This document shows positions 9,373-23,047 of a DNA stretch of 28,934 bases, piece by piece (positions within the stretch are counted from its first letter, which is position 1; each line of letters starts with the position of its first letter). Both the position numbers and the translations under genes were made by a program. The DNA comes from an uncultured Thermoplasmatales archaeon (lineage in GTDB: Archaea > Thermoplasmatota > E2 > DHVEG-1). The notes below the pieces were generated by a model. It searched no databases, was not told the DNA's origin, and saw nothing but the letters and a program-made list of their open reading frames with translations. Location of the stretch: positions 1 through 28,934 of the forward strand of contig CAZLDE010000001.1 of assembly GCA_964558215.1 (NCBI GenBank), given 5' to 3'.

Positions 9373-11331
9373 TTATGTTAGGACCACGGCATTAAACTTT
9401 CCAAATACGAATCGTTCTCCGACGAACCCCCTCATTGAGCTTTTTGAAATCATGATGCTCTCATCAGAACGATACAGACGCAGCGTGGAAGGAAGGATAA
9501 CGAGGAACTTCGCGTTGCAACTGATATAGTCCTCTGTCTCGTTCTTCTCGCTGATAAGACCAAACATCGTTGATCGAGTGAGAGTAAAAATATTCACATC
9601 TAAGGGAGAAGACCAGGTGCTTTCTTCATGAAGGGGATCCCTTGCCTTGACTTTGACCTGAAAAGTGCCTGCCGTAGTCCAGTAGCGTACCACGGTTACC
9701 TCCTGCCCCGACTCAAAGGGGCCTATCCAAGAGGAATTTGACCCATCATCCCAGTCGACGAAATATTCGACATCGTTGTTATCGGGATCGTTGGTTGAAA
9801 AACAATATTCGTATAGCTTTCCAGTAAAACCAGTTGTCGTGCCGTCGATGATCGGTGGGCAGGGTGGTGAATTGGGACGGGTGAGGGGAACTTCAAGGAT
9901 TTCCGCGCTGGACAACGTGATGTTAACTTGATGAATCTGAGACCTGTACCCTTGTGCAGAGAAATTCACATTATAGGTTCCGGGAGGAAGGAACAAATGG
10001 TATCTACCGAACCGTGGTTCACTCATGTAATGCTCCTCGTTTGTAAAGGTGACTCCTTCAAGCGTTATCGTCGCTACTAATGGTGCGCCGGTCGCATGAT
10101 CTGTCACATGGCCGCTAATGGATATTTCCCGTTGCAACTCCCACAGGGTCCCTGGCCAGACCAATGCTGCTTCACTGAGAGCACTAGCATAGGTTGGCTG
10201 GAAGGAAGTATGGGTTTCGATGAGGTTCGCATACGATCCGTTATAGGCCAGATGCCATTGATAGTTTTCACCATCTGCGCTGGCTAGACGGGTCGATCCG
10301 CTGTACCCAACAGCATACGCAAGACGTATTCCTTCTGATTGCAGAAAGCTGGTAAAGGGATGGGACAGGGAGAGGTACCCGTACAATACCTCGCGGCCAT
10401 AGGAATGGTAATCAAGGACTTTGGCAAAATGTCGGTCGTTTCCGAATGTCATCATGGTCTGTGTTTCTGGTTCAGAGGCTGCACTGGGTCCTTTGTAGGT
10501 TTCATCATAGGGATTTGTACTTCCTCCGCCAGCGGAATTCCAGCCAAAGGGATAATTACGATTCAAATCGACACCATCAGGGGGAGCTCGGTTCTTCCGC
10601 CAGTAGTTATCATAGTTGAACATGTAGACATATCCATCTGGATTCCAAATAGGAGATATCCAGATTTCGTAATTGTCAACCGCTGCAGTGATGTCTGGGT
10701 CGATTCCATACTGGGTTGTGAATTGTTGTATTGAATTGTTACAGATGACCGGGGTGACGACTTCTCTGGCATGATGAGCACCGACCATAAGGAAATTTGG
10801 TTCATCCTCATCCGTTGCGACGTTATCTGAGATTTTTATGGCATAGAGATGCCTGCCTTCATACGTTGGGGAAAGGCCGTACCATGTCGTGAGGTCATAG
10901 ACCTTGCAGATAGAAGGATACTGACTTTCATAGGTATACAACACATCAACCATTGCAGGGTAATCGATGTATCCTGCTGGTAGTAATGGTTCCAGGATCA
11001 TCTGCTCTGCTTGAATGTCACGAAATGGTCTTCCTTGCGAGAGTAACTCAAGGTGATATCCTTGTGTTTGTAATTTTTTAAAGACACCTGGTTTTACAAC
11101 CAATTCAAAAGAATCATCAGTGATAGTATTCACGAACACATCGAATCCTCCTTTAATAAAGATAGAAGCAACCTGTCGTGCATCCTGCACTTTTAGAAGA
11201 CTATGGCAGAGAGTCTCAGATGTTGGAGTTTCTGCTCTTACTGGATCGTATGCTTGATTTCCTGTTACACTTACATAACTTATACCAATTAACAAAATAC
11301 ATGCAGATAGGCTCACCAATTTCTTTTTCAC
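9373..11331 (-). CDS. Secreted M14 zinc carboxypeptidase (carboxypeptidase T-like) with a carboxypeptidase-regulatory-like domain, a PKD domain and a beta-rich C-terminal domain
   Basis: GTG start and signal peptide. Zn ligands in GAHHARE (HxxE) and DYHSYG; DLNRNY substrate motif; catalytic Glu candidate in LIETH. Confidence 0.92.
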   Translation of the reverse strand: MKKKLVSLSACILLIGISYVSVTGNQAYDPVRAETPTSETLCHSLLKVQDARQVASIFIKGGFDVFVNTITDDSFELVVKPGVFKKLQTQGYHLELLSQGRPFRDIQAEQMILEPLLPAGYIDYPAMVDVLYTYESQYPSICKVYDLTTWYGLSPTYEGRHLYAIKISDNVATDEDEPNFLMVGAHHAREVVTPVICNNSIQQFTTQYGIDPDITAAVDNYEIWISPIWNPDGYVYMFNYDNYWRKNRAPPDGVDLNRNYPFGWNSAGGGSTNPYDETYKGPSAASEPETQTMMTFGNDRHFAKVLDYHSYGREVLYGYLSLSHPFTSFLQSEGIRLAYAVGYSGSTRLASADGENYQWHLAYNGSYANLIETHTSFQPTYASALSEAALVWPGTLWELQREISISGHVTDHATGAPLVATITLEGVTFTNEEHYMSEPRFGRYHLFLPPGTYNVNFSAQGYRSQIHQVNITLSSAEILEVPLTRPNSPPCPPIIDGTTTGFTGKLYEYCFSTNDPDNNDVEYFVDWDDGSNSSWIGPFESGQEVTVVRYWTTAGTFQVKVKARDPLHEESTWSSPLDVNIFTLTRSTMFGLISEKNETEDYISCNAKFLVILPSTLRLYRSDESIMISKSSMRGFVGERFVFGKFNAVVLT

Positions 11332-11608
11332 GATATATCCCCCAAAGAGAATAACAATAATAAAATACAGAAAAGGGCTTATAAAACTACCTCAACAATG
11401 AATCAGATAAAACAAAAAGGATTTTCTTTGAAATTAGGATGGGTAATGATAGAAAAAACACACATAGAATTTTCTCTTGTTTAAACCTCTAGAGAAAATA
11501 AATGAGGATGATGATACCAGTAATAGGAAGAAAATTTTCCCAGTCCAAGAATGCGCTCGGATGTACGAATTCAGTGGTGAATATAGACGTAACTTCAGAA
11601 AAAAAGTT

Positions 11609-12754
11609 TTACGAAGTAAGAACCATGGGATGAATCGGAAGAGGGGGTGTGACATTTCCTAATCGTTTCAACGCGTCAAGCTTCTCCCGTTTACCGATTT
11701 TTGCTTGTTCCAGAGCATCTCCCAGGATCTGTATCGACCTTGCGTAGGTCGGAAGGTCAACCGGGTGAGGTACACCGTCTTTCCCCCCATGGGCAAATGT
11801 GTAGCGAATCGGATCCTCCCAAGAAGGTCGTCCACCATAGAGGAGATCCGAGATAAGTGCCAAAGCACGAATAGCCATCGGACCGACCCCATTCATCGCG
11901 AGAAGCTCCTCATAACTTGTTGGATGGATATCATAAATCTGCTTCATCCTCGCCCAATTAATCGACCGTGGCATATCCAGACGAGGTAAGAGAGCACTGC
12001 TCCGATGATGCCAAGACCAAGTATCTAATGTTGTCTGGTTCTTATGTTTTGTAACAATCGCCCAGTCTTCTCTAAGATGTACTGGATTATCATTGATCAG
12101 ATCGACAGAGATTTTCTGGGCAGTGGTGCTTTGTTTCGCGGTCATGTCAAGTACGTTTTCTTGTCGATCTTCCCCGATGATCGCAGTGTGAGGATCACAA
12201 ACAAAATTATTAACATCCTCTGATAACCAATGGTAACGACGGGCGTATCCGGTATCGTTATTCATCCCCTGCTGAATCACCATCCACCGTTTGGTTTCCG
12301 ACACAAGAAACACATGATGATACAGTCTATGGCCGTCTTGTATCGCTGTGCTATCAACCTTGGCGGCCATGCGGCTACAATACTGCAGACGATCAACAAG
12401 AGACGCTGAAAGATTGAGATTTTCAGCATATACCTTTATCTCTGCAAGGGTGTTTTGCGACGCTTTCCCCTTCCCGCCACACAACCTCACCCCAAGCTCC
12501 TCATGGTTCAATGCTTCTTTCAAGGCACCACAGGTGACCGTGGTAGTCCCTGATGAATGCCAATCATACCCAAGAACACAGCAGAACGCCTGAAACCAGA
12601 ATGGGTCAGCAAGCCTGCGGAGGAACTCATCAGCCCCATATTCATAAACAATGACCTTGGTGATTTCTCTGGAGAGGGCAACCATCCTTTTGAATAACCA
12701 CCGAGGTGCTTTTCCTGAATGAAGTGGAAGAGTAGCGACACCTGTCCTTCGCAT
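11609..12754 (-). CDS. DUF763 family protein
   Basis: Family motifs LPLHSGKAPRWL, DWHSSGTTT, GGKG, SRMAAKVD, YHH, QQGMN, ARRYHW and FAHGGKDGVP. The ATG at 12754 is preferred over TTG at 12760. Confidence 0.9.
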   Translation of the reverse strand: MRRTGVATLPLHSGKAPRWLFKRMVALSREITKVIVYEYGADEFLRRLADPFWFQAFCCVLGYDWHSSGTTTVTCGALKEALNHEELGVRLCGGKGKASQNTLAEIKVYAENLNLSASLVDRLQYCSRMAAKVDSTAIQDGHRLYHHVFLVSETKRWMVIQQGMNNDTGYARRYHWLSEDVNNFVCDPHTAIIGEDRQENVLDMTAKQSTTAQKISVDLINDNPVHLREDWAIVTKHKNQTTLDTWSWHHRSSALLPRLDMPRSINWARMKQIYDIHPTSYEELLAMNGVGPMAIRALALISDLLYGGRPSWEDPIRYTFAHGGKDGVPHPVDLPTYARSIQILGDALEQAKIGKREKLDALKRLGNVTPPLPIHPMVLTS

Positions 12755-12999
12755 AGTCAACTATGTTTTAGAGCAATTAAAGGTTATAATCTTTCATGGG
12801 AGATCAATGAAAGTATCAGTTTCCCTAATATGGGAAGATATAAAAAACCATAGTGTTTCTCAGAGTGCATAATATCAGGAGACTACCTAAAATTGCTACA
12901 AATAGTGACACAAGGAAATGCTTCTGGAAACAGGCATCGGTTTAATCCTTCTTCATTTATTTTAAGTGATATCAGCGAAAAAGAAAAGGAGCTGAAAAA

Positions 13000-14382
13000 A
13001 TGGAACATCCAGATTATCTAACGTATATGAAGAATTTTGATATGCATATGCAAAAATACTTCCCATCAAAAGAAGCTTGGACACCAGTTGATGATGCGTT
13101 ATACAAACCACCCGACCTGTTCCGCATCCCATTAAAAGAAGCATCTGAAATGCTTTTAAAATCCATGAAATACACCTTTGCTCTTCAGTACAACAACAAT
13201 AAGGTCTACCATACTTTCTGTAAAGAACGCGACTTCGCTCCAGATAACATTAAAACCGTTGAGGACCTTGATAAGATCCCTCTCATCCCAGATAACTTCT
13301 TCAAGGATTATCCCTCCGGGAAAGATTTCGCATTATGGCTCGGCAACCTGTTCACAGGGGATCTCCCCCGGGTTGTTATTAAACAAGCTAACCCGACCTA
13401 CGATGAGGTCATCAACGCTTTTAACGAGGCAGGCATGGCCGTCGCTTACAGCAGCGGGACGAGCGGGCGACACACGTTCATCCCACGGGATCAACGGACC
13501 TTCAATGTCTCCGAGTATGCCATTGCAAAATCCGTTATTTCCATGATCTACCCACTCTGGGATTATTCACTGCATGGCTATTTACTCATGCCCAACCCAA
13601 AGAAAACCAATGTGTACGCTGGAAAAGTCTGCACCGTGTATTTCGACGCAATCCATGATGTACGGGTCGCAATTGACCGTGATATCACCACAGAACTCAT
13701 CCGGATGACGATGACCGGCCAAAAAGGAGTAAAAACCAAAATCGTGAAATATTTCGCGAAACGGGAATCGGAAAAAATGATCAACGAGATCATCAAATGG
13801 CTGGAGCATCACGAGAAAACCAACGAGAAAATCGCGTTGGTCGGCGCTCCCTTCATCCTATCCTTTGTGATGAAAAAACTCCAGAAAGAAGGGAAAAGCT
13901 TTGATTTTGGTGAACGCGGTGGTGTCGGTACAGGTGGCGGCTGGAAAGCCTATGAAGGCGCTCGCGTACCTGTCGCAGAATTCCGCAAGCAGGTCGAGAA
14001 AGTCCTGGGCATCCCTGAAAAATTTTGCCTGGATATCTACGGCATGGTTGAGGGAAACGGTTGGATGGTCCACTGCCCAGAAGGCCATTACTTGCATGCA
14101 CCATATTCATATTATAAACCCCTTGTGCTTGATTCGGAGTATAAACCAGTGGGGTACGGGGAATGGGGACGCTTTGCGTTCCTTGATGCTGCCGCGTACA
14201 GCTACCCTGGTTTCATCATCTCTGGTGATAAGGTCCGCATGCTTGAGCACTGCCCAGTCTGCGACCGTCCAGGACCAGTCCTTGAACCAGAGGTGAAACG
14301 GGCTGCCGGTGAGGAGATCCGCGGATGTGCCGAGGAGTTACGCAGGATGCTTTCTGCAGATCTTGGGAAGGATACGAAATAA
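13000..14382 (+). CDS. luxE: LuxE/PaaK-family acyl-protein synthetase (adenylate-forming ligase)
   Basis: YSSGTSG P-loop, LDIYGMVE, YPGFIISGD and a C-terminal EIRGCA motif (Cys443); AGGAG SD upstream. The symbol is a family label only; no lux operon is in the window. Confidence 0.82.
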   Translation: MEHPDYLTYMKNFDMHMQKYFPSKEAWTPVDDALYKPPDLFRIPLKEASEMLLKSMKYTFALQYNNNKVYHTFCKERDFAPDNIKTVEDLDKIPLIPDNFFKDYPSGKDFALWLGNLFTGDLPRVVIKQANPTYDEVINAFNEAGMAVAYSSGTSGRHTFIPRDQRTFNVSEYAIAKSVISMIYPLWDYSLHGYLLMPNPKKTNVYAGKVCTVYFDAIHDVRVAIDRDITTELIRMTMTGQKGVKTKIVKYFAKRESEKMINEIIKWLEHHEKTNEKIALVGAPFILSFVMKKLQKEGKSFDFGERGGVGTGGGWKAYEGARVPVAEFRKQVEKVLGIPEKFCLDIYGMVEGNGWMVHCPEGHYLHAPYSYYKPLVLDSEYKPVGYGEWGRFAFLDAAAYSYPGFIISGDKVRMLEHCPVCDRPGPVLEPEVKRAAGEEIRGCAEELRRMLSADLGKDTK

Positions 14383-14383
14383 C

Positions 14384-15364
14384 ATGCTGACACCCTGGGA
14401 AATCAAAAAAAAAGAAATGGTCCCTCCACGTCATATGATTCAGATGAATGTCGGAGGCATATTTTTTCTTCTAAAAATGCTGTTGATGAACCTAGGGACA
14501 CTCAAAATGCTCAAGAACCAGGAAAAAAACATTTACACCCGACCATCACCAACCTATACCCTGCCGATCCTTACAGCGGAAATGAAGAAAAATCATTCGG
14601 AAGAGAAGTACCTCAGACCTACGTTGTTTTGTAACTGTCGAGCCCCCGAGATAATCGCAGTAGCCCACGAGCTTGGCGCCTATAAAAAAACAGATCAAAA
14701 GTATGCTGAGGCGGCTTTTGAGTTTGCAAAAAGGAAAATTATCCTTGAAATGGTTCCATTGGACGATGTCGATGCAGTATTACGTCGAGGCACGGGGACC
14801 TGTCTGCATAAGATCTCTGTCTTTATCGCCCTCTGCCGAGCCGCTGGGATACCGGCACGGTACAAGTTCTTTGCTCTGACCATGCTGGAAAACTGGATGG
14901 GGCCTGCGCTTGACCGGGCACCGCTTATGAAACAGTGGTATGACGCGATGGGGCATTTCTTGCTGCATGGTGAAGGAGAGGCCTATATCAATGGAAGATG
15001 GATCACTGCTGATGTTGGTGCAGAGCCACAGCGACAAGCAGCAGCATGGATTCCGGTGACAAAACTAGGGGAGGACTCTGCTGGACTGTGGTTATTCCCA
15101 ATCCCAGGGACGATTTTCCAGAGAGAATCCATCCCGCTTGGTCTTGGACTCCCATCTCAACTTCTTATGAAGCGGTTGGTGCCAAACTCTGTGGCTGGTA
15201 TAAATATTGGAATTTTGGAACAAATCGAGAAAGGCAGAAAGATAATTGAACAAGCAGGTGGAGAAGCAGCGTATGACGCGGAGGCTCGGAAGAGACGCAC
15301 ACAGATGGCAACGAAAACAGAGCTACTGAAAAACCATGAAAATATTGTTTTTGAGGGGAAGTAA
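14384..15364 (+). CDS. Cytoplasmic transglutaminase-like protein, paralog 1 (Cys-His-Asp)
   Basis: RRGTGTCLHK..ALCRAAGIPARY, LLHGEGEAY and WITADVG motifs. The ATG at 14384 lies 1 nt after the luxE stop; the track's 14309 start overlaps luxE. Confidence 0.85.
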   Translation: MLTPWEIKKKEMVPPRHMIQMNVGGIFFLLKMLLMNLGTLKMLKNQEKNIYTRPSPTYTLPILTAEMKKNHSEEKYLRPTLFCNCRAPEIIAVAHELGAYKKTDQKYAEAAFEFAKRKIILEMVPLDDVDAVLRRGTGTCLHKISVFIALCRAAGIPARYKFFALTMLENWMGPALDRAPLMKQWYDAMGHFLLHGEGEAYINGRWITADVGAEPQRQAAAWIPVTKLGEDSAGLWLFPIPGTIFQRESIPLGLGLPSQLLMKRLVPNSVAGINIGILEQIEKGRKIIEQAGGEAAYDAEARKRRTQMATKTELLKNHENIVFEGK

Positions 15365-16660
15365 ATGGAGAAGAAAAAACATCAGTATCTGCGGTATGTA
15401 AAATATTTTGGCCCCGGGGCGATCCTCGCATCGATGACCATTGGTGCAGGTAACATTGTGTTAGCTCCACGGGTTGGAGCATGGGCTATTCCTGCGTACT
15501 CAGCGTTATGGGTCATCACGTTTGCCCTGATCACCAAGGGTCTGACCGCTTATTTGGCGACCCGGTATTCGTTACTCTCCGGGGAACATATCATGTCGTT
15601 GTTTGCTCGCGTGCGTCCTCGGGGTTGGATTAATATCGTATCCATCATCATCGGGTTTGCATTACTCCCATTTATGATTGCGACGTTTCTGACAATCCTT
15701 GGCAACGTCCTAACATTGTTTACGAGTGTCGGTAATTATTTTATCTGGGGAGTTGGCATTGGACTTCTGATAGCTTTTTTCGGGTTCTTCGGTACGCTTC
15801 GTATCATGGAAATCGTTCAACTGGTCTTTGCCGTGTTTCTAGCTATTGGTGCGATTGTCGCAGTCATGGTTGTCAATCCCGAATGGCTGACGGTCATTCA
15901 AGGGTTAGTGACGGTTCAGGTCCCCCGAGTTGCTACATGGGTCACTGCCGAGGATATCATCGCAGTACCAATCCTACTTCAGATGGCAGCGGTGTACGGC
16001 ACGATGAATGGGGTATACTCAGATTTTACTGCATATATCGCCTGGTGGAGACAAAAGACAAATGAGAAAAAAATCTCCCTGAAATCAGAAGCGTTCACCG
16101 GTATGAAAGTAGATTTGTTCCTCTCTCTTCTGATTGTCGCGATTTTTACCATTGCGTTTATGGTTGCTGGAGCTGTAATCCTTGGTCAGAAACAAATCGT
16201 CCCCAACGGCGTCGATCTTATCTCGGCGCAGCGCGAGATTTACGCGACAATCAATCCGTTCATTGGAATGTATCTGTATCCTTTGGCTGTGCTGGTGGTT
16301 ATCGGTGGAACGATCTATGCAGGGATGGACGCAGTACCTAGGATGATTAAGGCATGGGCTGATCCGATTAGCGCACGGGTACAAAAAATCACGTTTAAAC
16401 GTTTCAAAGGATATATCGTCCTTTATCTGCTTCTCGTCAGTCTTCCCTTGATGGTCATTGAAAAACCGATTATTCTGATGACTCTATATCTGCTGTTGAC
16501 CGGTGTGTTTGGCATGTGGCTTCTTGGATGGGGTGCCCTCTGGGCAAACCAACGTCATCTGCCAAAAGAAGAGCGGATCGGAAAAGGGATGTTTCTTATC
16601 TATGCAGTCAACAACGTCATCGTCACTATCTTCATTGTTGCTATCCTGATTATCCGATGA
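15365..16660 (+). CDS. Nramp/APC-superfamily (YcsG-like) membrane transporter
   Basis: About 11 hydrophobic segments and an N-terminal FGPGAILASMTIGAGN motif; abuts the upstream stop codon with no gap. Confidence 0.75.
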   Translation: MEKKKHQYLRYVKYFGPGAILASMTIGAGNIVLAPRVGAWAIPAYSALWVITFALITKGLTAYLATRYSLLSGEHIMSLFARVRPRGWINIVSIIIGFALLPFMIATFLTILGNVLTLFTSVGNYFIWGVGIGLLIAFFGFFGTLRIMEIVQLVFAVFLAIGAIVAVMVVNPEWLTVIQGLVTVQVPRVATWVTAEDIIAVPILLQMAAVYGTMNGVYSDFTAYIAWWRQKTNEKKISLKSEAFTGMKVDLFLSLLIVAIFTIAFMVAGAVILGQKQIVPNGVDLISAQREIYATINPFIGMYLYPLAVLVVIGGTIYAGMDAVPRMIKAWADPISARVQKITFKRFKGYIVLYLLLVSLPLMVIEKPIILMTLYLLLTGVFGMWLLGWGALWANQRHLPKEERIGKGMFLIYAVNNVIVTIFIVAILIIR

Positions 16661-17639
16661 TATCTTCTCTCCGGTGATACCATCTGACGAGATCATCAAT
16701 CGTCGAAGTCACGGTATATCGTGGTTTGTAGTGTAGCTCATGTTCTGCTTTTGTTATGTCCAGCTGACGTGCATGCCCAAGGACTTTCACCTTATGACGC
16801 GTGAAAGGAGGGTTTTGTTTCCTGCGAAGAGCCCATAAACCTTCAATGAGGCTTGCAAGGACATATGCTCCAAGATAAGACCGGTGTGTCTTAGGAGTAG
16901 GGACATGAATTTTTTCTGCAAGCGCCTCGATCAATTGTTTCGGGGTGCTATCAAAACTCTTCACATTATATACCTGGCCAGCTGCGTTGTCGGTTTCACC
17001 AGAGAGACGCAGACAAGAGGCGACGTCACGGCCATCGGAGATGGAGATCTGTTGTTGTCCGTTTCCGATATAGAATAATCTTCCTTGTTTGAGTGCTTGA
17101 ACCAGGAAAGGGGTAATTAACGAATCACGGGGACCAACTACCAGTGGTGATCGAATCGCTGAAACCGCCATGTCATATTTCTTTCCATACGCCCAGATCA
17201 ATTGTTCAGCTCGTAGTTTTGATTCCCCATATTTCGCGGTTGGTTTTTTCTGATACTCTTCTTTGATTGGCATGGTTGTTTTTGGGAACCCGTACACTGC
17301 AGCCGAGCTCATGAATACGAACCGTGGGACCTTGTTCTTAACGCATGCGTCAAGAAGGTTTTTCGTTCCATCGACATTGATGTCGAAAAATGTTTTCTTC
17401 GGGCCCCAATCCCGTGGGAGAGCAGCAACGTGAAACACCACATCAACATGTTCACATGCGTGGACCAGGGACTCTGGGTCCGTGAGATCACCGAGAGAAA
17501 AAGAAGCTTTTTTTCCTATGAGCGCTTTCGTAGAGCTTGTAGTTCGTCGCAACACCCGTACTTCATAACCCTGTTCTATGAGCTCATCGGTGAGGTGACT
17601 GCCGATAAAGCCTGTTCCACCGGTTACCAGCGCCTGCAT
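16650..17639 (-). CDS. Extended SDR: NAD-dependent epimerase/dehydratase or 3-beta-HSD-like reductase
   Basis: ALVTGGTGFIG Rossmann motif, SSAAVYG and YGESK (YxxxK). The ATG at 17639 is preferred over TTG at 17651. Confidence 0.9.
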   Translation of the reverse strand: MQALVTGGTGFIGSHLTDELIEQGYEVRVLRRTTSSTKALIGKKASFSLGDLTDPESLVHACEHVDVVFHVAALPRDWGPKKTFFDINVDGTKNLLDACVKNKVPRFVFMSSAAVYGFPKTTMPIKEEYQKKPTAKYGESKLRAEQLIWAYGKKYDMAVSAIRSPLVVGPRDSLITPFLVQALKQGRLFYIGNGQQQISISDGRDVASCLRLSGETDNAAGQVYNVKSFDSTPKQLIEALAEKIHVPTPKTHRSYLGAYVLASLIEGLWALRRKQNPPFTRHKVKVLGHARQLDITKAEHELHYKPRYTVTSTIDDLVRWYHRREDIIG

Positions 17640-17718
17640 GGAAAGGGACAATATCTTCTTGTTAAAAAACTCATTCAGAAAAGATAATATGCTCCTATTA
17701 TTTCATGGACGGATTAGC

Positions 17719-18696
17719 ATGGTAGGTCTTAGAGAGATAAAAGACAAGGGATATTTCCCACAAAAAACCTATCTCAAACTCATGATTGGTGGTGGTTTAT
17801 CCTTAACCAAGGTGTTACTGACATCCCCGGGTGATCTGAAAAAACTTCGGACGATCCATGGTTCCGCGGAGCGATACATCCGACCGAAACGACTCTACGA
17901 GTTACCTGTGTATGTAGAAGGGATGCGATGTGGTGTAACCGAGGAGAGGTACCTGAGACCGACGCTGTTTTGTAACCCGTGTGCACCCGAGGTTGTCGCG
18001 TTAGCACATCACCTGGGTGCCTTTCAGAAATCGGATTATGAGTTTGCGAAGGCTGCATTTGAGTTTACGAAGGAAAACCTTGATTTGGAAATCTGCACAA
18101 TGAACCCTGTGGAAGAGACTATCAGGCGGGGCACAGGAACCTGTTTTCATTTAATTACGGTGTTCATCGCACTGTGCCGTGCAGCAGGGATAAAAGCACG
18201 CTATAAGATGTTTGCGATGAATATGATTAAAGCATGGTACGATGTGCTTGTCGGAGCCGACCCTTTGGTGAAAAAATGGTATGATTCGATGGGGTATTTC
18301 ATGATTGAGGGTGAAGGAGAGGCGTTCATCGATGGCAGATGGGTCGTTGCTCATGTCGGTCCGACCGCGGAGCGGCAAGCTGCAGCAGGGATCCCCATTA
18401 CGAAGTTCGGGGAGGATTCTTTGGGTATTTGGTTCTTTGCTATTCCTGGGACGACCATGTATATGGAGTCGATGCCCTATGGGTTGGGCGGTGCGACGAA
18501 ACTGCTGAAACGGATAGCCCCTGGCTCGATGGAGCGGGTCAACATCAGCATCCAGCATCAGAATACGATGGGTAAAAAGATCATTACGGATGCCGGTGGG
18601 GAAGAAGCCTATGATGCGATGGCACGTAAGAAGCTGGGGCCGAAAGGGCCAACGGTAGAGCTTACGAAGAAAAGTCAAATCGTTTTTGGGGAGTGA
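17719..18696 (+). CDS. Cytoplasmic transglutaminase-like protein, paralog 2 (Cys-Glu-His at the triad positions)
   Basis: Colinear with paralog 1 (YLRPTLFCN, RRGTGTC, ALCRAAGI, RQAAA, GEDS, AGGE.AYDA.ARK). The ATG at 17719 is chosen because it gives the same length as paralog 1 and avoids overlap with the SDR. Confidence 0.85.
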   Translation: MVGLREIKDKGYFPQKTYLKLMIGGGLSLTKVLLTSPGDLKKLRTIHGSAERYIRPKRLYELPVYVEGMRCGVTEERYLRPTLFCNPCAPEVVALAHHLGAFQKSDYEFAKAAFEFTKENLDLEICTMNPVEETIRRGTGTCFHLITVFIALCRAAGIKARYKMFAMNMIKAWYDVLVGADPLVKKWYDSMGYFMIEGEGEAFIDGRWVVAHVGPTAERQAAAGIPITKFGEDSLGIWFFAIPGTTMYMESMPYGLGGATKLLKRIAPGSMERVNISIQHQNTMGKKIITDAGGEEAYDAMARKKLGPKGPTVELTKKSQIVFGE

Positions 18697-19961
18697 ACGT
18701 TATGCAAACCACCGAGCAGACACAGCCAAGTGTCTTTTTGAAACCCCGATCGAGACGGTATATCATTTACCTGGTTTTTTTTATGGGGATTGTGGCAATC
18801 ATGGATCAGTATCTTTCCATGGTCCCTATCACGTATATGAACTCCATCCTTGATGAATATTCAATGAGCGCCTCGCAGTTCTCATGGTGGGAGGCGCTGT
18901 ATTTGATTCCTACGTTTTTCATTTTCGCCCTCAACGGACTCGTTGATATTATCGGGAGAAAATTCTCCATTCTTGTTCTTGTCCTCATCATGGGATTGTC
19001 ATCGCTGGCTATCGTCCTTTTCACCCCAACGTTTCATCTCTTCATGGTCTTCTACGCGATCGTTACGTTCACAACCGTATCAAATATGTGGACGATTCCG
19101 ATTAGTGAAGAATCCCCAGCAAAAAAACGCGCGGAGCTTACCTCCATTGTGTATGTGATAGGGTTGTTTCCCCTCTCAGCCATCATACCTCTCTATGTTA
19201 TTCCGACACTCGGATGGAAGTGGATGTATGGGATCATGTTTTTCTTTATGATACCTGTTCTTGTCCTCTGGGTGTTCATGAAGGAAACTGGACGGTATGA
19301 GGAAATCAAAGAGGAACGCAAGTCTGGGAAATTGAAAAAGCATTTCTTTGGACTCGGGTCAATCAATCGAAGTGACATAAAATATATCTTTTTCTCTGCG
19401 GTTATTTGGCTATGCTGGCTGATTAATTCTCTTCTTATCATCCGCTGGATGGGGTATTATTTCATGGAGGTTCATGGGTATGCTCGGAGCGAATGGCTCA
19501 TGGTCTTTCTTGCTTCAGGCATCATGATGATCATCGGTGGTGTCGTCAGCGGATATGTCATGGACAAAATAGGGAGAAAAATCGGGTTTATCATCGGAGC
19601 AGCAGGGTTTGCTGTCTCCTTGTTTCTCATGTCGTTTGGACCAGTGCCGTTACTGCCTGTTTGGGGTGCTCTGACAGGATTTTTCATCGCATTTGCTTAT
19701 GCATGGGTCATCGTGTATATCCCAGAGATTTTCCCAACAGAGCGGAGAGGAACCTGTCTTGGTTGGACAACGACCGTGGCACGTGTCTCCTATGTTGTCG
19801 GACCCGTGATCGCAGCGGTGATGTTGGAAACAAATCCTACCATGGAATGGTTCTGGGTCGTGGGGGGACTGCTGATGATCCTTGCCATCGTTATTGTGGT
19901 CTTGTTCCATCCCTATGAGACCAAGGTTATGGAACTCGAAGAAATCGAGGTAAACCGGTAG
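18693..19961 (+). CDS. MFS transporter
   Basis: About 12 TM segments, motif A in both halves (GLVDIIGRK, GYVMDKIGRK), and EIFPTERRG. Overlaps the paralog-2 stop (GTGA); an alternative ATG lies at 18702. Confidence 0.92.
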   Translation: MNVMQTTEQTQPSVFLKPRSRRYIIYLVFFMGIVAIMDQYLSMVPITYMNSILDEYSMSASQFSWWEALYLIPTFFIFALNGLVDIIGRKFSILVLVLIMGLSSLAIVLFTPTFHLFMVFYAIVTFTTVSNMWTIPISEESPAKKRAELTSIVYVIGLFPLSAIIPLYVIPTLGWKWMYGIMFFFMIPVLVLWVFMKETGRYEEIKEERKSGKLKKHFFGLGSINRSDIKYIFFSAVIWLCWLINSLLIIRWMGYYFMEVHGYARSEWLMVFLASGIMMIIGGVVSGYVMDKIGRKIGFIIGAAGFAVSLFLMSFGPVPLLPVWGALTGFFIAFAYAWVIVYIPEIFPTERRGTCLGWTTTVARVSYVVGPVIAAVMLETNPTMEWFWVVGGLLMILAIVIVVLFHPYETKVMELEEIEVNR

Positions 19962-20721: not shown

Positions 20722-21192
20722 TCATGAGGAGCCTTTTAGAAGATGGAGGTTTATTTTTTCTCTCATGTTCTCATAATGTGTTCCCATCCAGTAGTATTTC
20801 TTGCAGGTTGGGCAGTACCAGAACGCGTCCCTTGTTCTGAATACCTGTTCAGGGATATACGGTTCAAGTCCTTTTTTTTCAACGGAACGAAGAGGGTTGT
20901 TACACAGGGTGCAGCGGGATAGAATTGTCTTTTCATCAACCGTTATATGTGAGAGAACCTGTGCTATTTGTTCAGAAAGACGGGTCGTCTGTATTTCTAG
21001 GACAGGGAGCTGTGCTTTCTTGCCTCGTTGTATCAATCGTTTATCACGGGAGATAAGAAGTCGGTTTTCCTCTTTGGCAGTCTGCAGGAGAGAATCATCA
21101 GTGGTCGTATTATCTGGATACATCGTATCAAATCCAAAAATACGCAGCCATTTCGCAAGCGAACCAAGCATGTGATCACAGAGTAGTTTCAT
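20722..21192 (-). CDS. Mut7-C RNase domain protein (PIN-like fold with Zn ribbon)
   Basis: CDHMLGSLAKWLRIFGFDT, SRD, RCTLCN and CPTCKKYYWMGTH motifs. Confidence 0.9.
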   Translation of the reverse strand: MKLLCDHMLGSLAKWLRIFGFDTMYPDNTTTDDSLLQTAKEENRLLISRDKRLIQRGKKAQLPVLEIQTTRLSEQIAQVLSHITVDEKTILSRCTLCNNPLRSVEKKGLEPYIPEQVFRTRDAFWYCPTCKKYYWMGTHYENMREKINLHLLKGSS

Positions 21193-21253
21193 AGTACACC
21201 AGAATGGTAAGGAGGAATTTGTCTTTTACAATACTGTCCTATTCATGGTTTTC

Positions 21254-23047
21254 TTAGAAATATCGACGGACCTCAAGCATATCAAAATTCGGGTTCCCGA
21301 CGTTATCGTAAGCGATGACGATGATGGTGTGTTTGTGGAAGAAGAGCGGGGCTTTTGTCCATCTCCAGCTGTAGGGCTCCTGGGTATCGGTGAAGAGGGG
21401 TTCATTGGAGTCATCAATGAGGAATTCAACTCGGGCGATACCAGAATGGGCATCTGATGCTTCGACATCAATAGTCACAGGGCCGAAAAGCAGGGTTCCT
21501 TGTCTAAACATCCAGGGCATAAAACGGAGGTTCCCAAGATACAGTCCATTTGTTGGCGAGACGATCGTCACAACTGGAGGAATGGTATCCTCGCCGATGT
21601 ACGGCTCCATTAAAGGATAGCGGTCCGTGTTAATCCCATCTGGGATTGCGTACGGTGTATCACCAATACCATCCCCGTCGTCATCAGAACCAGTGTAATC
21701 ATCCCAGTAGTTACCCCCCGAGGGGTATCCGTCATCCCAGATGTTGTTCCCATTGTCATAGGCGTGATGGCGGTTTGATTGGAATGTATTGTGGTAGATA
21801 CAATTGTTGGATGCATCTGAAATCCCTAGACCTGCGTAGAAGTTATTGGCAATGGTATTCTCGATAATGTTGCTGTTGATACATCCGGGTTTCAGGACAA
21901 CCCCGTTCCATCCATTATCCGTGATTTGATTGTTCGCAATGGTGGTATCCTGCACGTTCTGTTTCAGTATGATGCCGTGGAAGTTTTTAGTGATGATATT
22001 ATACAGGAGAGAACAAGTATTTCCCTGTACAACAATGCCAGCGTTTTGTTCCATGGTGCCACTGTGTCGAACCATAAATCCTTCGATTGAGACATTATCA
22101 GAACAGATTGTTATCACATCGCCATTGTATCGTCCATCAATGATCGTTTCACAGGAGTGACCTCCACCCCAGAGCATGATTGATTTGGAAATCAAGAGAT
22201 GTTCTAAATAGATACCATGTGAAACGCTAATCTCTTGGCCATCCTGGGTGTTATCATCATCGATGGCTTTCTGGATTGTTAAAAAAATCTCCTCGGTATC
22301 GGTGTTGTAGATGGAGCCATAGGGATGGATGAGTGGGTAGGTATCCTGAGAGCAGTTTCCCGTAGGATAGGGGATCTCTCCAATACCGTCTTCATCGTCA
22401 TCTGTTCCGTTGTAATCATCCCAGTAGTTTCCTCCACCGGGGTATCCTGCATCCCAAGTACTGCCTGCGGTGATATCAACTGCTTGATAGGCGTTTTTCA
22501 TGAAGTTGTTGTGGCAGATTTGGTTGTTTGTCCCAATGACATACAGCCCGTAGTTATCATTATTGCGGAAATTATTGTTTGTGATGACATTATTTGAGGT
22601 ATGGACCATGATTCCCGCGTTATTCGGCGCGCTTCCACAATCGGATATTGAAAACCCGCTGAGGGTCACATTGTCTGCAACGATTTGAACGATGGTCCCG
22701 CTATAGCTATATCCAACGATGGATGCAAATCTATCTTCACCAAGAAGTTCAATGGATTTGCTGACAACAATATTCTCCCGATAAACCCCAGGGAAGACAT
22801 AGACAGTATCTCCCTCGCTGGCATGGTCTATACCATCCTGGATGAATTGGTAGGGATAGTCCATGGTACCTTCCCAGGGTCCTTCGGTGTTGTCGTCATC
22901 AACATAGATGGTTAAGTCTCCATAGCTCGTTGTTTCGGTTTCTGTGCTAGGAATCATGGTTGCTGATGCAGGGATGATGCAGAGACTTGCGATAACAAAA
23001 ACGATTAACATCTTACTGACATATGTTTTTAGCGATATAGTTCTCAT
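21254..23047 (-). CDS. Secreted NosD/pectin-lyase-like parallel beta-helix protein with two beta-helix units and a C-terminal Ig-like domain
   Basis: Signal peptide; IYVDDDN; IQDGID/IQKAID unit starts; Asn-ladder repeats; GGNYWDDY twice; C-terminal PPVVTIVSP...AYDNVGN domain. Confidence 0.88.
   Translation of the reverse strand: MRTISLKTYVSKMLIVFVIASLCIIPASATMIPSTETETTSYGDLTIYVDDDNTEGPWEGTMDYPYQFIQDGIDHASEGDTVYVFPGVYRENIVVSKSIELLGEDRFASIVGYSYSGTIVQIVADNVTLSGFSISDCGSAPNNAGIMVHTSNNVITNNNFRNNDNYGLYVIGTNNQICHNNFMKNAYQAVDITAGSTWDAGYPGGGNYWDDYNGTDDDEDGIGEIPYPTGNCSQDTYPLIHPYGSIYNTDTEEIFLTIQKAIDDDNTQDGQEISVSHGIYLEHLLISKSIMLWGGGHSCETIIDGRYNGDVITICSDNVSIEGFMVRHSGTMEQNAGIVVQGNTCSLLYNIITKNFHGIILKQNVQDTTIANNQITDNGWNGVVLKPGCINSNIIENTIANNFYAGLGISDASNNCIYHNTFQSNRHHAYDNGNNIWDDGYPSGGNYWDDYTGSDDDGDGIGDTPYAIPDGINTDRYPLMEPYIGEDTIPPVVTIVSPTNGLYLGNLRFMPWMFRQGTLLFGPVTIDVEASDAHSGIARVEFLIDDSNEPLFTDTQEPYSWRWTKAPLFFHKHTIIVIAYDNVGNPNFDMLEVRRYF
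21610..22845 (-). repeat. Intragenic tandem duplication of a beta-helix unit
   Basis: GYPGGGNYWDDYNGTDDDEDGIGEIPY (about 22365-22456) and GYPSGGNYWDDYTGSDDDGDGIGDTPY (about 21651-21739). The second unit is roughly 50 aa longer. Confidence 0.8.

What the first reader, a model, noticed from the sequence alone, without database searches (positions are those of the whole stretch)
13000..19961. Candidate undescribed acyl-activation/acyl-transfer cluster: LuxE-like synthetase, two transglutaminase-like paralogs, an SDR and two transporters
Seen: luxE-like, TG1 and the Nramp-like transporter are tightly coupled (gaps of 1 and 0 nt). TG2 and the MFS gene overlap (GTGA). A divergent SDR sits between the two units, so a 'TG paralog then transporter' layout occurs twice. 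No luxC, luxD or luxAB is in the window. Known: LuxE adenylates an acid and holds it as a Cys thioester, normally for LuxC reduction. Papain-like Cys-His-Asp folds (transglutaminases, arylamine N-acetyltransferases) transfer acyl groups through a Cys thioester. Inference: the TG proteins may replace LuxC as thioester acceptors and form amides or esters, with the SDR tailoring and the transporters moving substrate or product. That would be an NRPS-independent amide or lipid-acylation pathway in an archaeon, a domain where acyl-lipid chemistry is uncommon.
Basis: partly seen in the sequence, partly recalled or inferred. Interest (0 to 1): 0.85.

Follow-up and report, generated by a model that had tools for sequence, protein, structure and literature searches.

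The report
LuxE-like activator paired with transglutaminase-fold enzymes
An uncultured Thermoplasmata archaeon carries a conserved, undescribed gene pair: an ATP-using enzyme that probably loads an acid onto its own tail cysteine, and a transglutaminase-fold cysteine enzyme (two copies here) that probably takes the acid over, usually with a membrane permease next to it.

Summary
All six genes are real and at the stated places. It is LuxE-like synthetase, then a transglutaminase-like (TG) gene, usually followed by a permease.

- **Linkage:** in 77 loci from different GTDB species, the LuxE-like gene lies directly upstream of TG in 54 of 59 loci with room. A permease follows in 44 of 63 (29 Nramp-like, 15 MFS).
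- **This window:** within the genus, TG1, the Nramp-like gene and the SDR are present in only some relatives. The common layout is LuxE, TG2, MFS.
- **LuxE-like residues:** the tested LuxE residues are kept (K316, R434, tail Cys443).
- **TG triads:** TG1 has Cys-His-Asp. TG2 belongs to a derived Cys-Glu-His clade. Loci with two TG genes always hold one of each type (16 of 16).
- **LuxC:** the genome has a luxC, but it sits beside a second LuxE paralog (41% identical) with a different tail. It is never beside the TG-linked one.
- **Bacteria:** related bacterial TG genes sit next to LuxE-like or AMP-binding/ACP genes in clusters with lipid- or natural-product-type enzymes.

Best reading (about 0.55): a Cys-to-Cys acyl relay that needs no CoA or carrier protein and ends in an amide or ester. 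The substrate is unknown. I found no paper describing the pair. This scan has already found it in other Thermoplasmatota genomes.

The parts
13000..14382 (+). LuxE-like acyl-protein synthetase, 460 aa. It has a PaaK-like fold, an SSGTSGR loop, TGGGWK (K316), R434, a Cys/His cluster (C359, H363/H366, C418, C421) and the tail motif RGC(443)AEExRR.
14326..14328 (+). Codon of Cys443. It aligns with the acylated Cys364 of Photobacterium LuxE.
14384..15364 (+). TG1, a 326-aa transglutaminase-fold protein with the canonical triad Cys140 (14801), His195 (14966) and Asp210 (15011).
15365..16660 (+). Nramp-like permease, 431 aa with about 11 hydrophobic segments. The metal-binding Asp of the DPGN motif is replaced by Gly, so it is probably not a metal transporter.
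16650..17639 (-). Extended SDR (epimerase / 3-beta-HSD type; weakly HpnA/OleD-like). It converges on the Nramp-like gene and diverges from TG2. It is a lineage-specific accessory.
17719..18696 (+). TG2, a 325-aa transglutaminase-fold paralog, 50% identical to TG1. It has Cys142 (18142), with Glu (18307) at the His position and His (18352) at the Asp position.
18693..19961 (+). MFS permease. Its nearest subfamilies are aromatic-acid/H+ and metabolite/H+ symporters, all below their cut-offs. It starts at GTG 18693 or ATG 18703.

Best explanation
The functional unit is the LuxE-like enzyme plus the transglutaminase-fold enzyme(s). A permease handles the substrate or the product.

1. The LuxE-like enzyme adenylates a carboxylic acid with ATP.
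2. It moves the acyl group onto Cys443 in its own flexible C-terminal tail, which acts as a built-in carrier arm.
3. The tail docks on the TG protein and passes the acyl group to the TG nucleophile (Cys140 in TG1, Cys142 in TG2).
4. TG then transfers the acyl group to an amine or hydroxyl acceptor, giving an amide or ester. No CoA and no carrier protein are needed.

In this window one activator would serve two TG enzymes of different active-site type (C-H-D and C-E-H). Each TG has its own permease. The SDR is an optional tailoring enzyme.

**Shown:** gene order and its conservation, conserved catalytic residues, and the folds.

**Inferred:** the Cys-to-Cys transfer, the acceptor, the direction of transport and the identity of the acid.
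For: - **Adjacency.** LuxE-like lies directly upstream of TG in 54 of 59 loci with room, with HSP gaps mostly 0-15 nt. The same holds in relatives of several families, while the flanking genes differ.
- **LuxE residues.** K316, R434 and Cys443 align with LuxE K238, R355 and Cys364. All three are invariant in 62 sequences.
- **Tail motif.** The tail after the Cys (AEExR[RK]M) is nearly invariant in TG-linked enzymes. It differs in the LuxC-linked paralog. That fits partner-specific docking.
- **Tail structure.** In the model the tail has low confidence and carries one short helix.
- **LuxC.** It was found only in this genus, always beside paralog B. Other lineages have the TG pair and no LuxC.
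- **No carrier protein.** No PP-binding carrier protein and no LuxD were found in the 89%-complete genome.
- **TG nucleophile.** The Cys is invariant, and both triad types are strictly conserved: 43 C-H-D and 51 C-E-H, with no intermediates.
- **Bacterial outgroup.** Outgroup TG genes lie next to LuxE-like genes (L041, L042, L120, L124) or next to AMP-binding and ACP genes (L040, P0190).
- **Precedent.** AdmF and CtaJ are TGase homologues that take an acyl group from a thioester and form an amide (PMC7898593).
Against: - No biochemical data exist and no complex was modelled.
- TG-fold proteins are more often hydrolases. The best solved match is a putative cysteine protease, 3ISR.
- Distant family members P0172 and P0184 have no ligase neighbour. 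About 5 of 59 loci lack LuxE upstream.
- The activating enzyme keeps a PaaK-like C-terminal subdomain, so CoA as acceptor is not excluded.
- The C-E-H arrangement of TG2 has no characterised precedent that I know of, and it might not be catalytic in the usual way.
- Related species are not independent samples.
Confidence: 0.55

Rival explanations
1. Salvage or catabolic module. The permease imports an amide-linked conjugate. The TG-fold enzyme works as an amidase or peptidase and releases a carboxylic acid. The LuxE/PaaK-like enzyme then activates that acid for further metabolism. There is no Cys-to-Cys transfer.
For: - The nearest solved TG match is a putative cysteine protease.
- The MFS is nearest to aromatic-acid and metabolite/H+ importers.
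- The activating enzyme is structurally closest to PaaK-type ligases of aromatic-acid catabolism.
- The window also encodes secreted peptidases, such as an M14 carboxypeptidase.
Against: - A LuxE-type enzyme ends with the acyl group on its own Cys and needs an acceptor protein (PMC9157457). No other conserved partner is present.
- The tail motif is specifically conserved in TG-linked enzymes.
- Bacterial relatives sit in biosynthetic-looking clusters, not catabolic ones.
Confidence: 0.15
2. Protein-modifying system. The activated acyl group, or an amino acid or peptide, is transferred by TG onto a lysine or the N-terminus of a target protein. This would be an acylation or tagging system. The permease linkage would then be secondary.
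For: - Classical transglutaminases act on protein side chains (PMC7898593).
- The E1/E2-like logic of adenylation, then a thioester, then a second Cys fits the conserved residues.
- The N-terminal helix of TG1 is borderline hydrophobic, which could place the enzyme at the membrane.
Against: - No conserved candidate target or tag gene lies beside the pair.
- Permeases of two unrelated families follow in 44 of 63 loci, which points to a small molecule.
Confidence: 0.15
3. Two-protein acyl-CoA, or other thiol, ligase. TG works like an arylamine N-acetyltransferase run in reverse and passes the acyl group from the LuxE tail to CoA or another small thiol.
For: - Arylamine N-acetyltransferases that bind CoA are among the fold matches.
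- The activating enzyme keeps a PaaK-like C-terminal subdomain.
Against: - The genome has ordinary PaaK-like ligase matches (weak hits), so a split ligase has no obvious advantage.
- The NAT matches are weak (E about 0.03-0.1, TM below 0.3).
Confidence: 0.08
4. The genes are neighbours with no shared function.
For: - A few loci lack the LuxE-like gene upstream of TG.
- Two distant TG relatives have no ligase neighbour.
Against: - Adjacency is kept at 92% of loci across species down to about 50% identity, with changing flanks.
- The same pairing occurs in bacterial contigs.
Confidence: 0.03

Closest known systems
LuxE-LuxC fatty acid reductase of luminous bacteria (PDB 7XC6; PMC9157457)
   Same: - It is an adenylate-forming enzyme of Pfam PF04443.
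- It has the GGGWK lysine, the Arg before the tail and a C-terminal (K/R)GC cysteine. That Cys is acylated and swings to a Cys on a partner enzyme.
- The partner gene lies immediately downstream.
   Different: - The partner here is a transglutaminase-fold protein, not the aldehyde-dehydrogenase-like LuxC. So no reduction to an aldehyde is expected.
- The archaeal enzyme is about 90 aa longer and aligns with nearly all of PaaK1, including its C-terminal part.
- It has a Cys/His cluster that Photobacterium LuxE lacks.
- It scores 80 bits against the NCBIfam LuxE equivalog cut-off of 550.
- The genome has a separate LuxE-LuxC pair.
AdmF (andrimid) and CtaJ (closthioamide), transglutaminase homologues used as condensation enzymes (PMC7898593)
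   Same: They are TG-fold Cys enzymes that take an acyl group from a protein-bound thioester or thioamide and pass it to an amine. They are encoded beside the activating machinery. Bacterial outgroup members of the present TG family lie beside ACP and AMP-binding genes.
   Different: - In those systems the donor is a phosphopantetheinyl carrier protein. Here no carrier protein was found in the genome, and the donor would be the synthetase's own cysteine.
- The sequence relationship to AdmF and CtaJ could not be tested because no sequences were available.
- TG2 has C-E-H, whereas CtaJ uses Cys-His-Asp.
PaaK-type phenylacetate-CoA ligases and relatives (PDB 2Y27, 4R1L; ClxA 9S45; EhpF 3L2K)
   Same: These are the best structural matches to the model of the activating enzyme (E about 1e-14, 410 aligned columns). 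The N-terminal motif is shared.
   Different: - PaaK uses CoA and has no tail cysteine.
- Equivalog scores are far below the cut-offs: 24 bits against 646.
Nramp divalent-metal transporters (PF01566)
   Same: The fold family matches: Pfam 32 bits against a cut-off of 29.8, Atlas neighbours are all Nramp, and TM1 aligns with human NRAMP1.
   Different: - The Asp of the DPGN metal site is Gly in all four aligned family members.
- NCBIfam scores 31 bits against a cut-off of 50.
- An MFS permease takes the same position in other loci. This suggests an organic substrate.

Membership tests
LuxE acyl-protein synthetase family (Pfam PF04443) | Score above the Pfam gathering cut-off | tested here: met
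   90.3 bits against 24.9. Only the C-terminal half of the profile is matched. The family profile hits PDB 7xc6_E at E = 3e-38.
LuxE acyl-protein synthetase family (Pfam PF04443) | Catalytic Lys/Arg pair (LuxE K238/R355) and the acylated tail Cys (Cys364 in TRxxKGCxLS) | tested here: met
   K316, R434 and C443 align with them. All three are invariant in 62 sequences.
LuxE proper (NCBIfam NF052244 equivalog; lux operon enzyme) | Equivalog score cut-off, adjacent luxC, and luxD in the genome | tested here: not met
   - 80.4 bits against a cut-off of 550.
- LuxC is never beside this paralog.
- No LuxD was found in the genome.
LuxE proper (structure) | Loss of the C-terminal ANL subdomain, replaced by a tail of about 20 residues (PMC9157457) | tested here: inconclusive
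   The model aligns with PaaK1 over 410 columns of a 427-residue chain. This suggests the subdomain is kept, with the tail added. Residue ranges were not given and coordinates were not inspected.
Transglutaminase-like superfamily (Pfam PF01841) | Score above the gathering cut-off, and the papain-like core fold | tested here: met
   - TG1 scores 40.3 bits and TG2 39.8 bits, against a cut-off of 23.
- The TG1 model has pLDDT 84.6.
- Foldseek hits include 3ISR, TgpA, TG2/FXIII and NATs.
Transglutaminase-like superfamily (Pfam PF01841) | Cys-His-Asp catalytic triad at the canonical positions | tested here: met
   This row is for TG1: C140, H195 and D210 align with the 3ISR motifs. TG2 is given in the next row.
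Transglutaminase-like superfamily, TG2 paralog | Cys-His-Asp catalytic triad at the canonical positions | tested here: not met
   TG2 has Cys, then Glu at the His position and His at the Asp position. This state is fixed in 51 sequences that form one derived clade.
AdmF/CtaJ-type condensing transglutaminases | Accepts an acyl group from a protein-bound thioester and forms an amide | not testable with these tools
   Only genomic association is available: adenylating enzymes lie next to TG genes. No sequences of AdmF or CtaJ were available for comparison.
Nramp metal transporters | DPGN and MPH metal-binding motifs, and the NCBIfam cut-off | tested here: not met
   - Asp is replaced by Gly in TM1.
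- NCBIfam scores 31.3 bits against 50.
- The Pfam cut-off is only just met, 32.2 against 29.8.
- The TM6 motif was not aligned.
Extended SDR (PF01370); HpnA / OleD equivalogs | Rossmann GxxGxxG and YxxxK motifs; equivalog cut-offs | tested here: inconclusive
   Membership of the SDR family is met: 159 bits, with GGTGFIGS and YGESK present. HpnA (164 against 368) and OleD (162 against 580) are not met.

The most novel reading that the evidence does not exclude
The LuxE-like/TG pair is a carrier-free and CoA-free acyl-transfer route. An acid is activated, carried on the synthetase's own tail cysteine, and handed to a transglutaminase-fold enzyme. That enzyme makes N-acyl or O-acyl small molecules, such as aminolipid-like or aryl-amide compounds, which are moved by the adjacent permease. 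The C-H-D and C-E-H forms would be two functionally distinct acyltransferases fed by one activator, with different acceptors or a two-step or heteromeric action. The C-E-H form would be a previously unseen working arrangement of the papain-like triad.
Probability: 0.3. Interest if true: 0.8.

Novelty: new variant of a known kind. Interest (0 to 1): 0.62.

Why it matters
- **New way to build amides or esters.** If the relay is real, a LuxE-type self-acylating activator feeding a transglutaminase-fold transferase would be a minimal two-protein route to amide or ester bonds. It would need no CoA, no phosphopantetheinyl carrier and no NRPS.
- **Widespread but unstudied.** The pair occurs throughout a large uncultured class of sediment and soil archaea, and also in bacterial clusters that look like lipid or natural-product pathways.
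- **Two enzyme families extended.** It would widen the known partners of LuxE beyond LuxC. It would add to the very few transglutaminase homologues known to act as condensation enzymes.
- **Active-site evolution.** The strictly conserved C-E-H variant offers a test case for how a papain-like active site can be rearranged.
- **Directly testable.** The pair can be tested with two recombinant proteins.

Tried and rejected
- **Literature.** 'LuxE' + 'transglutaminase' returned only unrelated papers, because of word-start matches such as Luxembourg. 'Acyl-protein synthetase' + 'archaea' gave nothing on this pair.
- **RNA elements.** An Rfam scan of the whole window found nothing. The sigma-70 promoter and terminator scan was at or below the shuffled expectation, and it does not suit archaea anyway.
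- **Nramp-like protein.** phmmer against the PDB gave no hit. Only a small family profile reached NRAMP1, and weakly.
- **Plasmids.** tblastn of a bacterial outgroup TG against plasmids gave only short, uninformative matches.
- **AlphaFold DB.** Fold clusters returned only unnamed 'transglutaminase-like' entries.
- **Bioluminescence.** Rejected. There is no LuxD, and the LuxC in the genome belongs to the other LuxE paralog.
- **SDR as a LuxC substitute (thioester reductase).** Considered because of weak NAD_binding_4 and thioester-reductase cross-hits. Set aside because the SDR is missing from most loci that have the pair.
- **TG1 as a membrane-anchored protein.** Its N-terminal helix is only borderline hydrophobic (KD19 of 1.56, below 1.6).
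- **Transcript evidence.** Soil metatranscriptome contigs from a 93-95% identical relative cover LuxE, TG1, TG2 and MFS, but not the Nramp-like gene or the SDR. No contig bridges the LuxE/TG1 junction by the required margin, and DNA carry-over is possible. I give this little weight.
- **Complex modelling.** The tools could not model a LuxE:TG complex or give access to model coordinates.


Full report
**1. What is in the sequence**

The ORF list, Pfam and NCBIfam confirm six genes:

| Gene | Coordinates | Match |
|---|---|---|
| LuxE-like enzyme | 13000-14382 (+) | PF04443, 90 bits, C-terminal half of the profile; N-terminal motif shared with PaaK and F390 synthetase |
| TG1 | 14384-15364 (+) | PF01841 |
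| Nramp-like permease | 15365-16660 (+) | PF01566, 32 bits, just over the cut-off |
| Extended SDR | 16650-17639 (-) | PF01370 |
| TG2 | 17719-18696 (+) | PF01841 |
| MFS permease | 18693 or 18703 to 19961 (+) | PF07690 |

There is one base between the LuxE stop and the TG1 ATG, and none between TG1 and the Nramp-like gene. GTGA is present at the TG2/MFS junction, although ATG 18703 is an equally plausible MFS start.
- The longest TG2 ORF starts at 17638, but it is probably too long. Orthologs and the family profile begin at ATG 17719.
- The SDR most likely begins at ATG 17639 on the minus strand. TG2-MFS is therefore a second transcription unit that diverges from the SDR.
- Homolog names place the organism among uncultured Thermoplasmata/Thermoplasmatota MAGs. 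DNA nearly identical to the window is held in freshwater, freshwater-sediment, soil and sludge metagenomes.

**2. The conserved unit is LuxE-like then TG, usually then a permease**

- **Relatives.** In 41 relatives, almost every full-length TG hit lies next to a LuxE-like hit.
- **History within the genus.**
  - The common layout is DUF763 on the opposite strand, then LuxE, TG2 and MFS, then Mut7-C on the opposite strand.
  - Some genomes add TG1 alone (L018). Others add TG1, Nramp-like and SDR between LuxE and TG2, as this window does.
  - Other genera have LuxE, a C-H-D TG, Nramp-like and SDR (L056). The window therefore looks like two module types merged behind one activator.
- **Across GTDB species.**
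  - Seventy-seven loci were examined.
  - LuxE-like is directly upstream of the first TG in 54 of 59 loci with at least 1.5 kb of room. One more locus has only an SDR in between.
  - A permease directly follows the last TG in 44 of 63 loci: 29 Nramp-like (about 30% identical to the window's) and 15 MFS.
- **Flanks.** Beyond these genes the neighbours differ: eRF1 and deoxyhypusine synthase, glycine-cleavage P protein, TauE, a peptide-binding protein.
- **Range.** In an even sample of 151 genomes of the phylum, the TG family was found in 22. Nearly all of these belong to a few families of the window's class.

**3. The activating enzyme**

- **Match to solved LuxE.** A family profile hits Photobacterium LuxE (7xc6_E) at E = 3e-38. 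In that alignment, GGGWK, the Arg before the tail and the (K/R)GC cysteine all line up.
- **What those residues do.** The LuxC-LuxE paper shows that K238 and R355 are needed for adenylation and thioesterification. It also places Cys364 in a flexible C-terminal motif that must swing to Cys296 of LuxC (PMC9157457).
- **Conservation here.** The equivalents K316, R434 and C443 are invariant in 62 sequences. So are the SSGT.G loop and a Cys/His set (C359, H363, H366, C418, C421) that Photobacterium LuxE lacks.
- **Tail motif.** The residues after the Cys (A-E-E-x-R-R/K-M-L) are almost invariant in TG-linked enzymes.
- **Model.** It has pLDDT 86.5, with a low-confidence tail that carries one short helix at 443-452. 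Its best solved matches are PaaK1/2, BT_0428, EhpF, ClxA and 2-hydroxyisobutyryl-CoA ligase. The PaaK1 alignment covers 410 columns of a 427-residue chain.
- **Conclusion.** The protein looks like a PaaK-shaped ligase that has gained the LuxE-type tail cysteine. It is in the LuxE family by Pfam, but it is not LuxE proper (80 bits against an equivalog cut-off of 550).

**4. LuxC exists, with another paralog**

- **Own genome.** It holds a second LuxE-like gene, 41% identical to the first, with a different tail after the Cys. This gene sits in a cluster of FAD-oxidase/4Fe-4S, SCP2, LuxE, SCP2 and LuxC on contig C2.
- **Relatives.** LuxC was found in 21 of 21 genomes of the genus and in none of 19 outside it. 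It is always a few hundred bases from paralog B and never beside the TG-linked paralog.
- **Other lux and carrier genes.** No LuxD and no PP-binding carrier protein were found in this 89%-complete genome.
Neither refutation condition holds: 'a cognate luxC is linked in relatives' and 'no recurrent linkage' are both contradicted by these results.

**5. The TG proteins**

- **Identity and nucleophile.** TG1 and TG2 are 50% identical. The nucleophile Cys is invariant.
- **Mapping of the triad.** A profile match to 3ISR maps TG1 H195 and D210 onto the canonical His and Asp.
- **Two states only.** Across 94 homologs there are 43 C-H-D and 51 C-E-H sequences, with no intermediates. In all 16 loci with two TG genes there is one of each type, in two different gene orders.
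- **Origin of C-E-H.** A tree rooted on distant relatives puts C-E-H as one derived clade inside C-H-D.
- **Model of TG1.** It has pLDDT 84.6. It matches transglutaminase-like putative proteases, TgpA, animal transglutaminases and, weakly, arylamine N-acetyltransferases. The family adds its own N- and C-terminal helices.
- **Location.** Neither TG has a clear transmembrane segment.

**6. Outgroup evidence**

A profile search of 1.8 billion representatives found 78 clusters at E ≤ 1e-30. The contexts of divergent members are listed below.

| Member (locus) | Context |
|---|---|
| P0169 (L042) | LuxE-like gene immediately upstream |
| P0186 (L120) | LuxE-like gene immediately upstream |
| P0187 (L041) | LuxE-like gene immediately upstream, on a contig with an outer-membrane efflux protein |
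| P0197 (L124) | LuxE-like gene immediately upstream, 32% identical over 442 aa, with the same CxxC and RGC tail |
| P0185 (L040) | ACP, unknown gene, TG, AMP-binding enzyme |
| P0190 | TG, then AMP-binding enzyme |
| P0172, P0184 | no ligase neighbour |

The bacterial clusters also carry KASIII, P450, sulfotransferase, glycosyltransferase, an SDR, a PlsC-like acyltransferase and a type I phosphodiesterase. So this TG clade keeps company with acyl-activating enzymes in both domains. In bacteria the setting looks biosynthetic, lipid-like or natural-product-like.

**7. Permeases and the SDR**

- **Nramp-like permease.** Gly replaces the metal-binding Asp of DPGN in all four aligned family members.
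- **Same slot, two families.** The Nramp-like permease shares its position with MFS permeases across loci. This points to an organic substrate or product.
- **MFS.** Its nearest subfamilies are aromatic-acid and metabolite/H+ symporters, all far below their cut-offs.
- **SDR.** It is an ordinary extended SDR with weak HpnA/OleD likeness. It is absent from most loci.

**8. Mechanism**

The best-supported reading is an acyl relay:

1. The acid is adenylated.
2. The acyl group moves to Cys443 on the synthetase tail.
3. It passes to the TG cysteine.
4. TG transfers it to an amine or hydroxyl acceptor, and a permease moves the substrate or product.

Precedents exist for each half: LuxE to LuxC (PMC9157457), and AdmF and CtaJ (PMC7898593). 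The transfer itself, the acid, the acceptor and the direction of transport are all inferred. I put this reading at about 0.55.

The rivals are scored in their own section:
- an amidase-plus-ligase salvage module;
- protein acylation or tagging;
- a split CoA ligase.

**9. Novelty and earlier notes**

- **Literature.** I found no paper on this pairing.
- **Earlier scan notes.** This scan has noted the same pair in other Thermoplasmatota genomes, with follow-ups reaching a similar reading. I reached mine before reading them. They agree with it but are not independent evidence.
- **New in this report:**
  - the history of the locus within the genus;
  - the rule that two-TG loci hold one C-H-D and one C-E-H;
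  - the counts of alternating permeases;
  - the genus-restricted LuxC with paralog B and its different tail;
  - the bacterial cluster contexts.

Noticed in passing
L004:179-5866 (own genome, contig C2): A second cluster holds an FAD-binding oxidase with a 4Fe-4S domain, SCP2, LuxE paralog B, SCP2 and LuxC. It looks like a fatty-acid-reductase-type module with lipid-carrier proteins in an archaeon. LuxC was found only in this genus (21 of 21) among 41 relatives.
   Followed up: partly
window 14801-15013 and 18142-18354: The TG family has exactly two active-site states, C-H-D (43) and C-E-H (51). C-E-H is one derived clade. Loci with two TG genes always have one of each type (16 of 16).
   Followed up: yes
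window 15365-16660: The Nramp-like permease family lacks the Asp of the DPGN metal site; it is Gly in all four aligned members. It occupies the same position as MFS permeases in other loci, so it may carry an organic molecule.
   Followed up: partly
L124:1-10507 (Logan contig, bacterial-looking): This cluster holds KASIII, sulfotransferase and P450, then LuxE-like and TG, then GT28-type glycosyltransferase, an extended SDR and GNAT. The same LuxE-TG pair here sits inside what looks like a lipid or natural-product gene cluster. L122 and L041 add a PlsC-like acyltransferase and a type I phosphodiesterase.
   Followed up: partly
L061 and L077: Contigs labelled 'Clostridia bacterium' and 'Acidobacteria bacterium' carry the archaeal-type LuxE-TG pair (50-57% identical). 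They share synteny with each other: a PP-loop ATPase and a TPM-domain gene lie downstream. This means either mis-binned or mislabelled archaeal contigs, or gene transfer.
   Followed up: partly
L031:7699-15135 (relative G033): Three LuxE-like paralogs, one TG, a TauE-type exporter and an Nramp-like permease lie in one stretch. Several activators may feed a single TG.
   Followed up: no
window 12881-15223 and 17769-19958: Soil metatranscriptome contigs from a 93-95% identical relative cover LuxE, TG1, TG2 and MFS, but not the Nramp-like gene or the SDR. This fits a relative with the LuxE, TG1, TG2, MFS layout. It is weak evidence of expression, because DNA carry-over is possible.
   Followed up: partly
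window 9373-12760 and 20722-23047: The flanking genes are a secreted M14 carboxypeptidase with PKD and CarboxypepD_reg domains, DUF763, a Mut7-C RNase and a NosD/beta-helix protein with a Big_7 domain. DUF763 and Mut7-C are syntenic with the cluster throughout the genus, but not beyond it.
   Followed up: no
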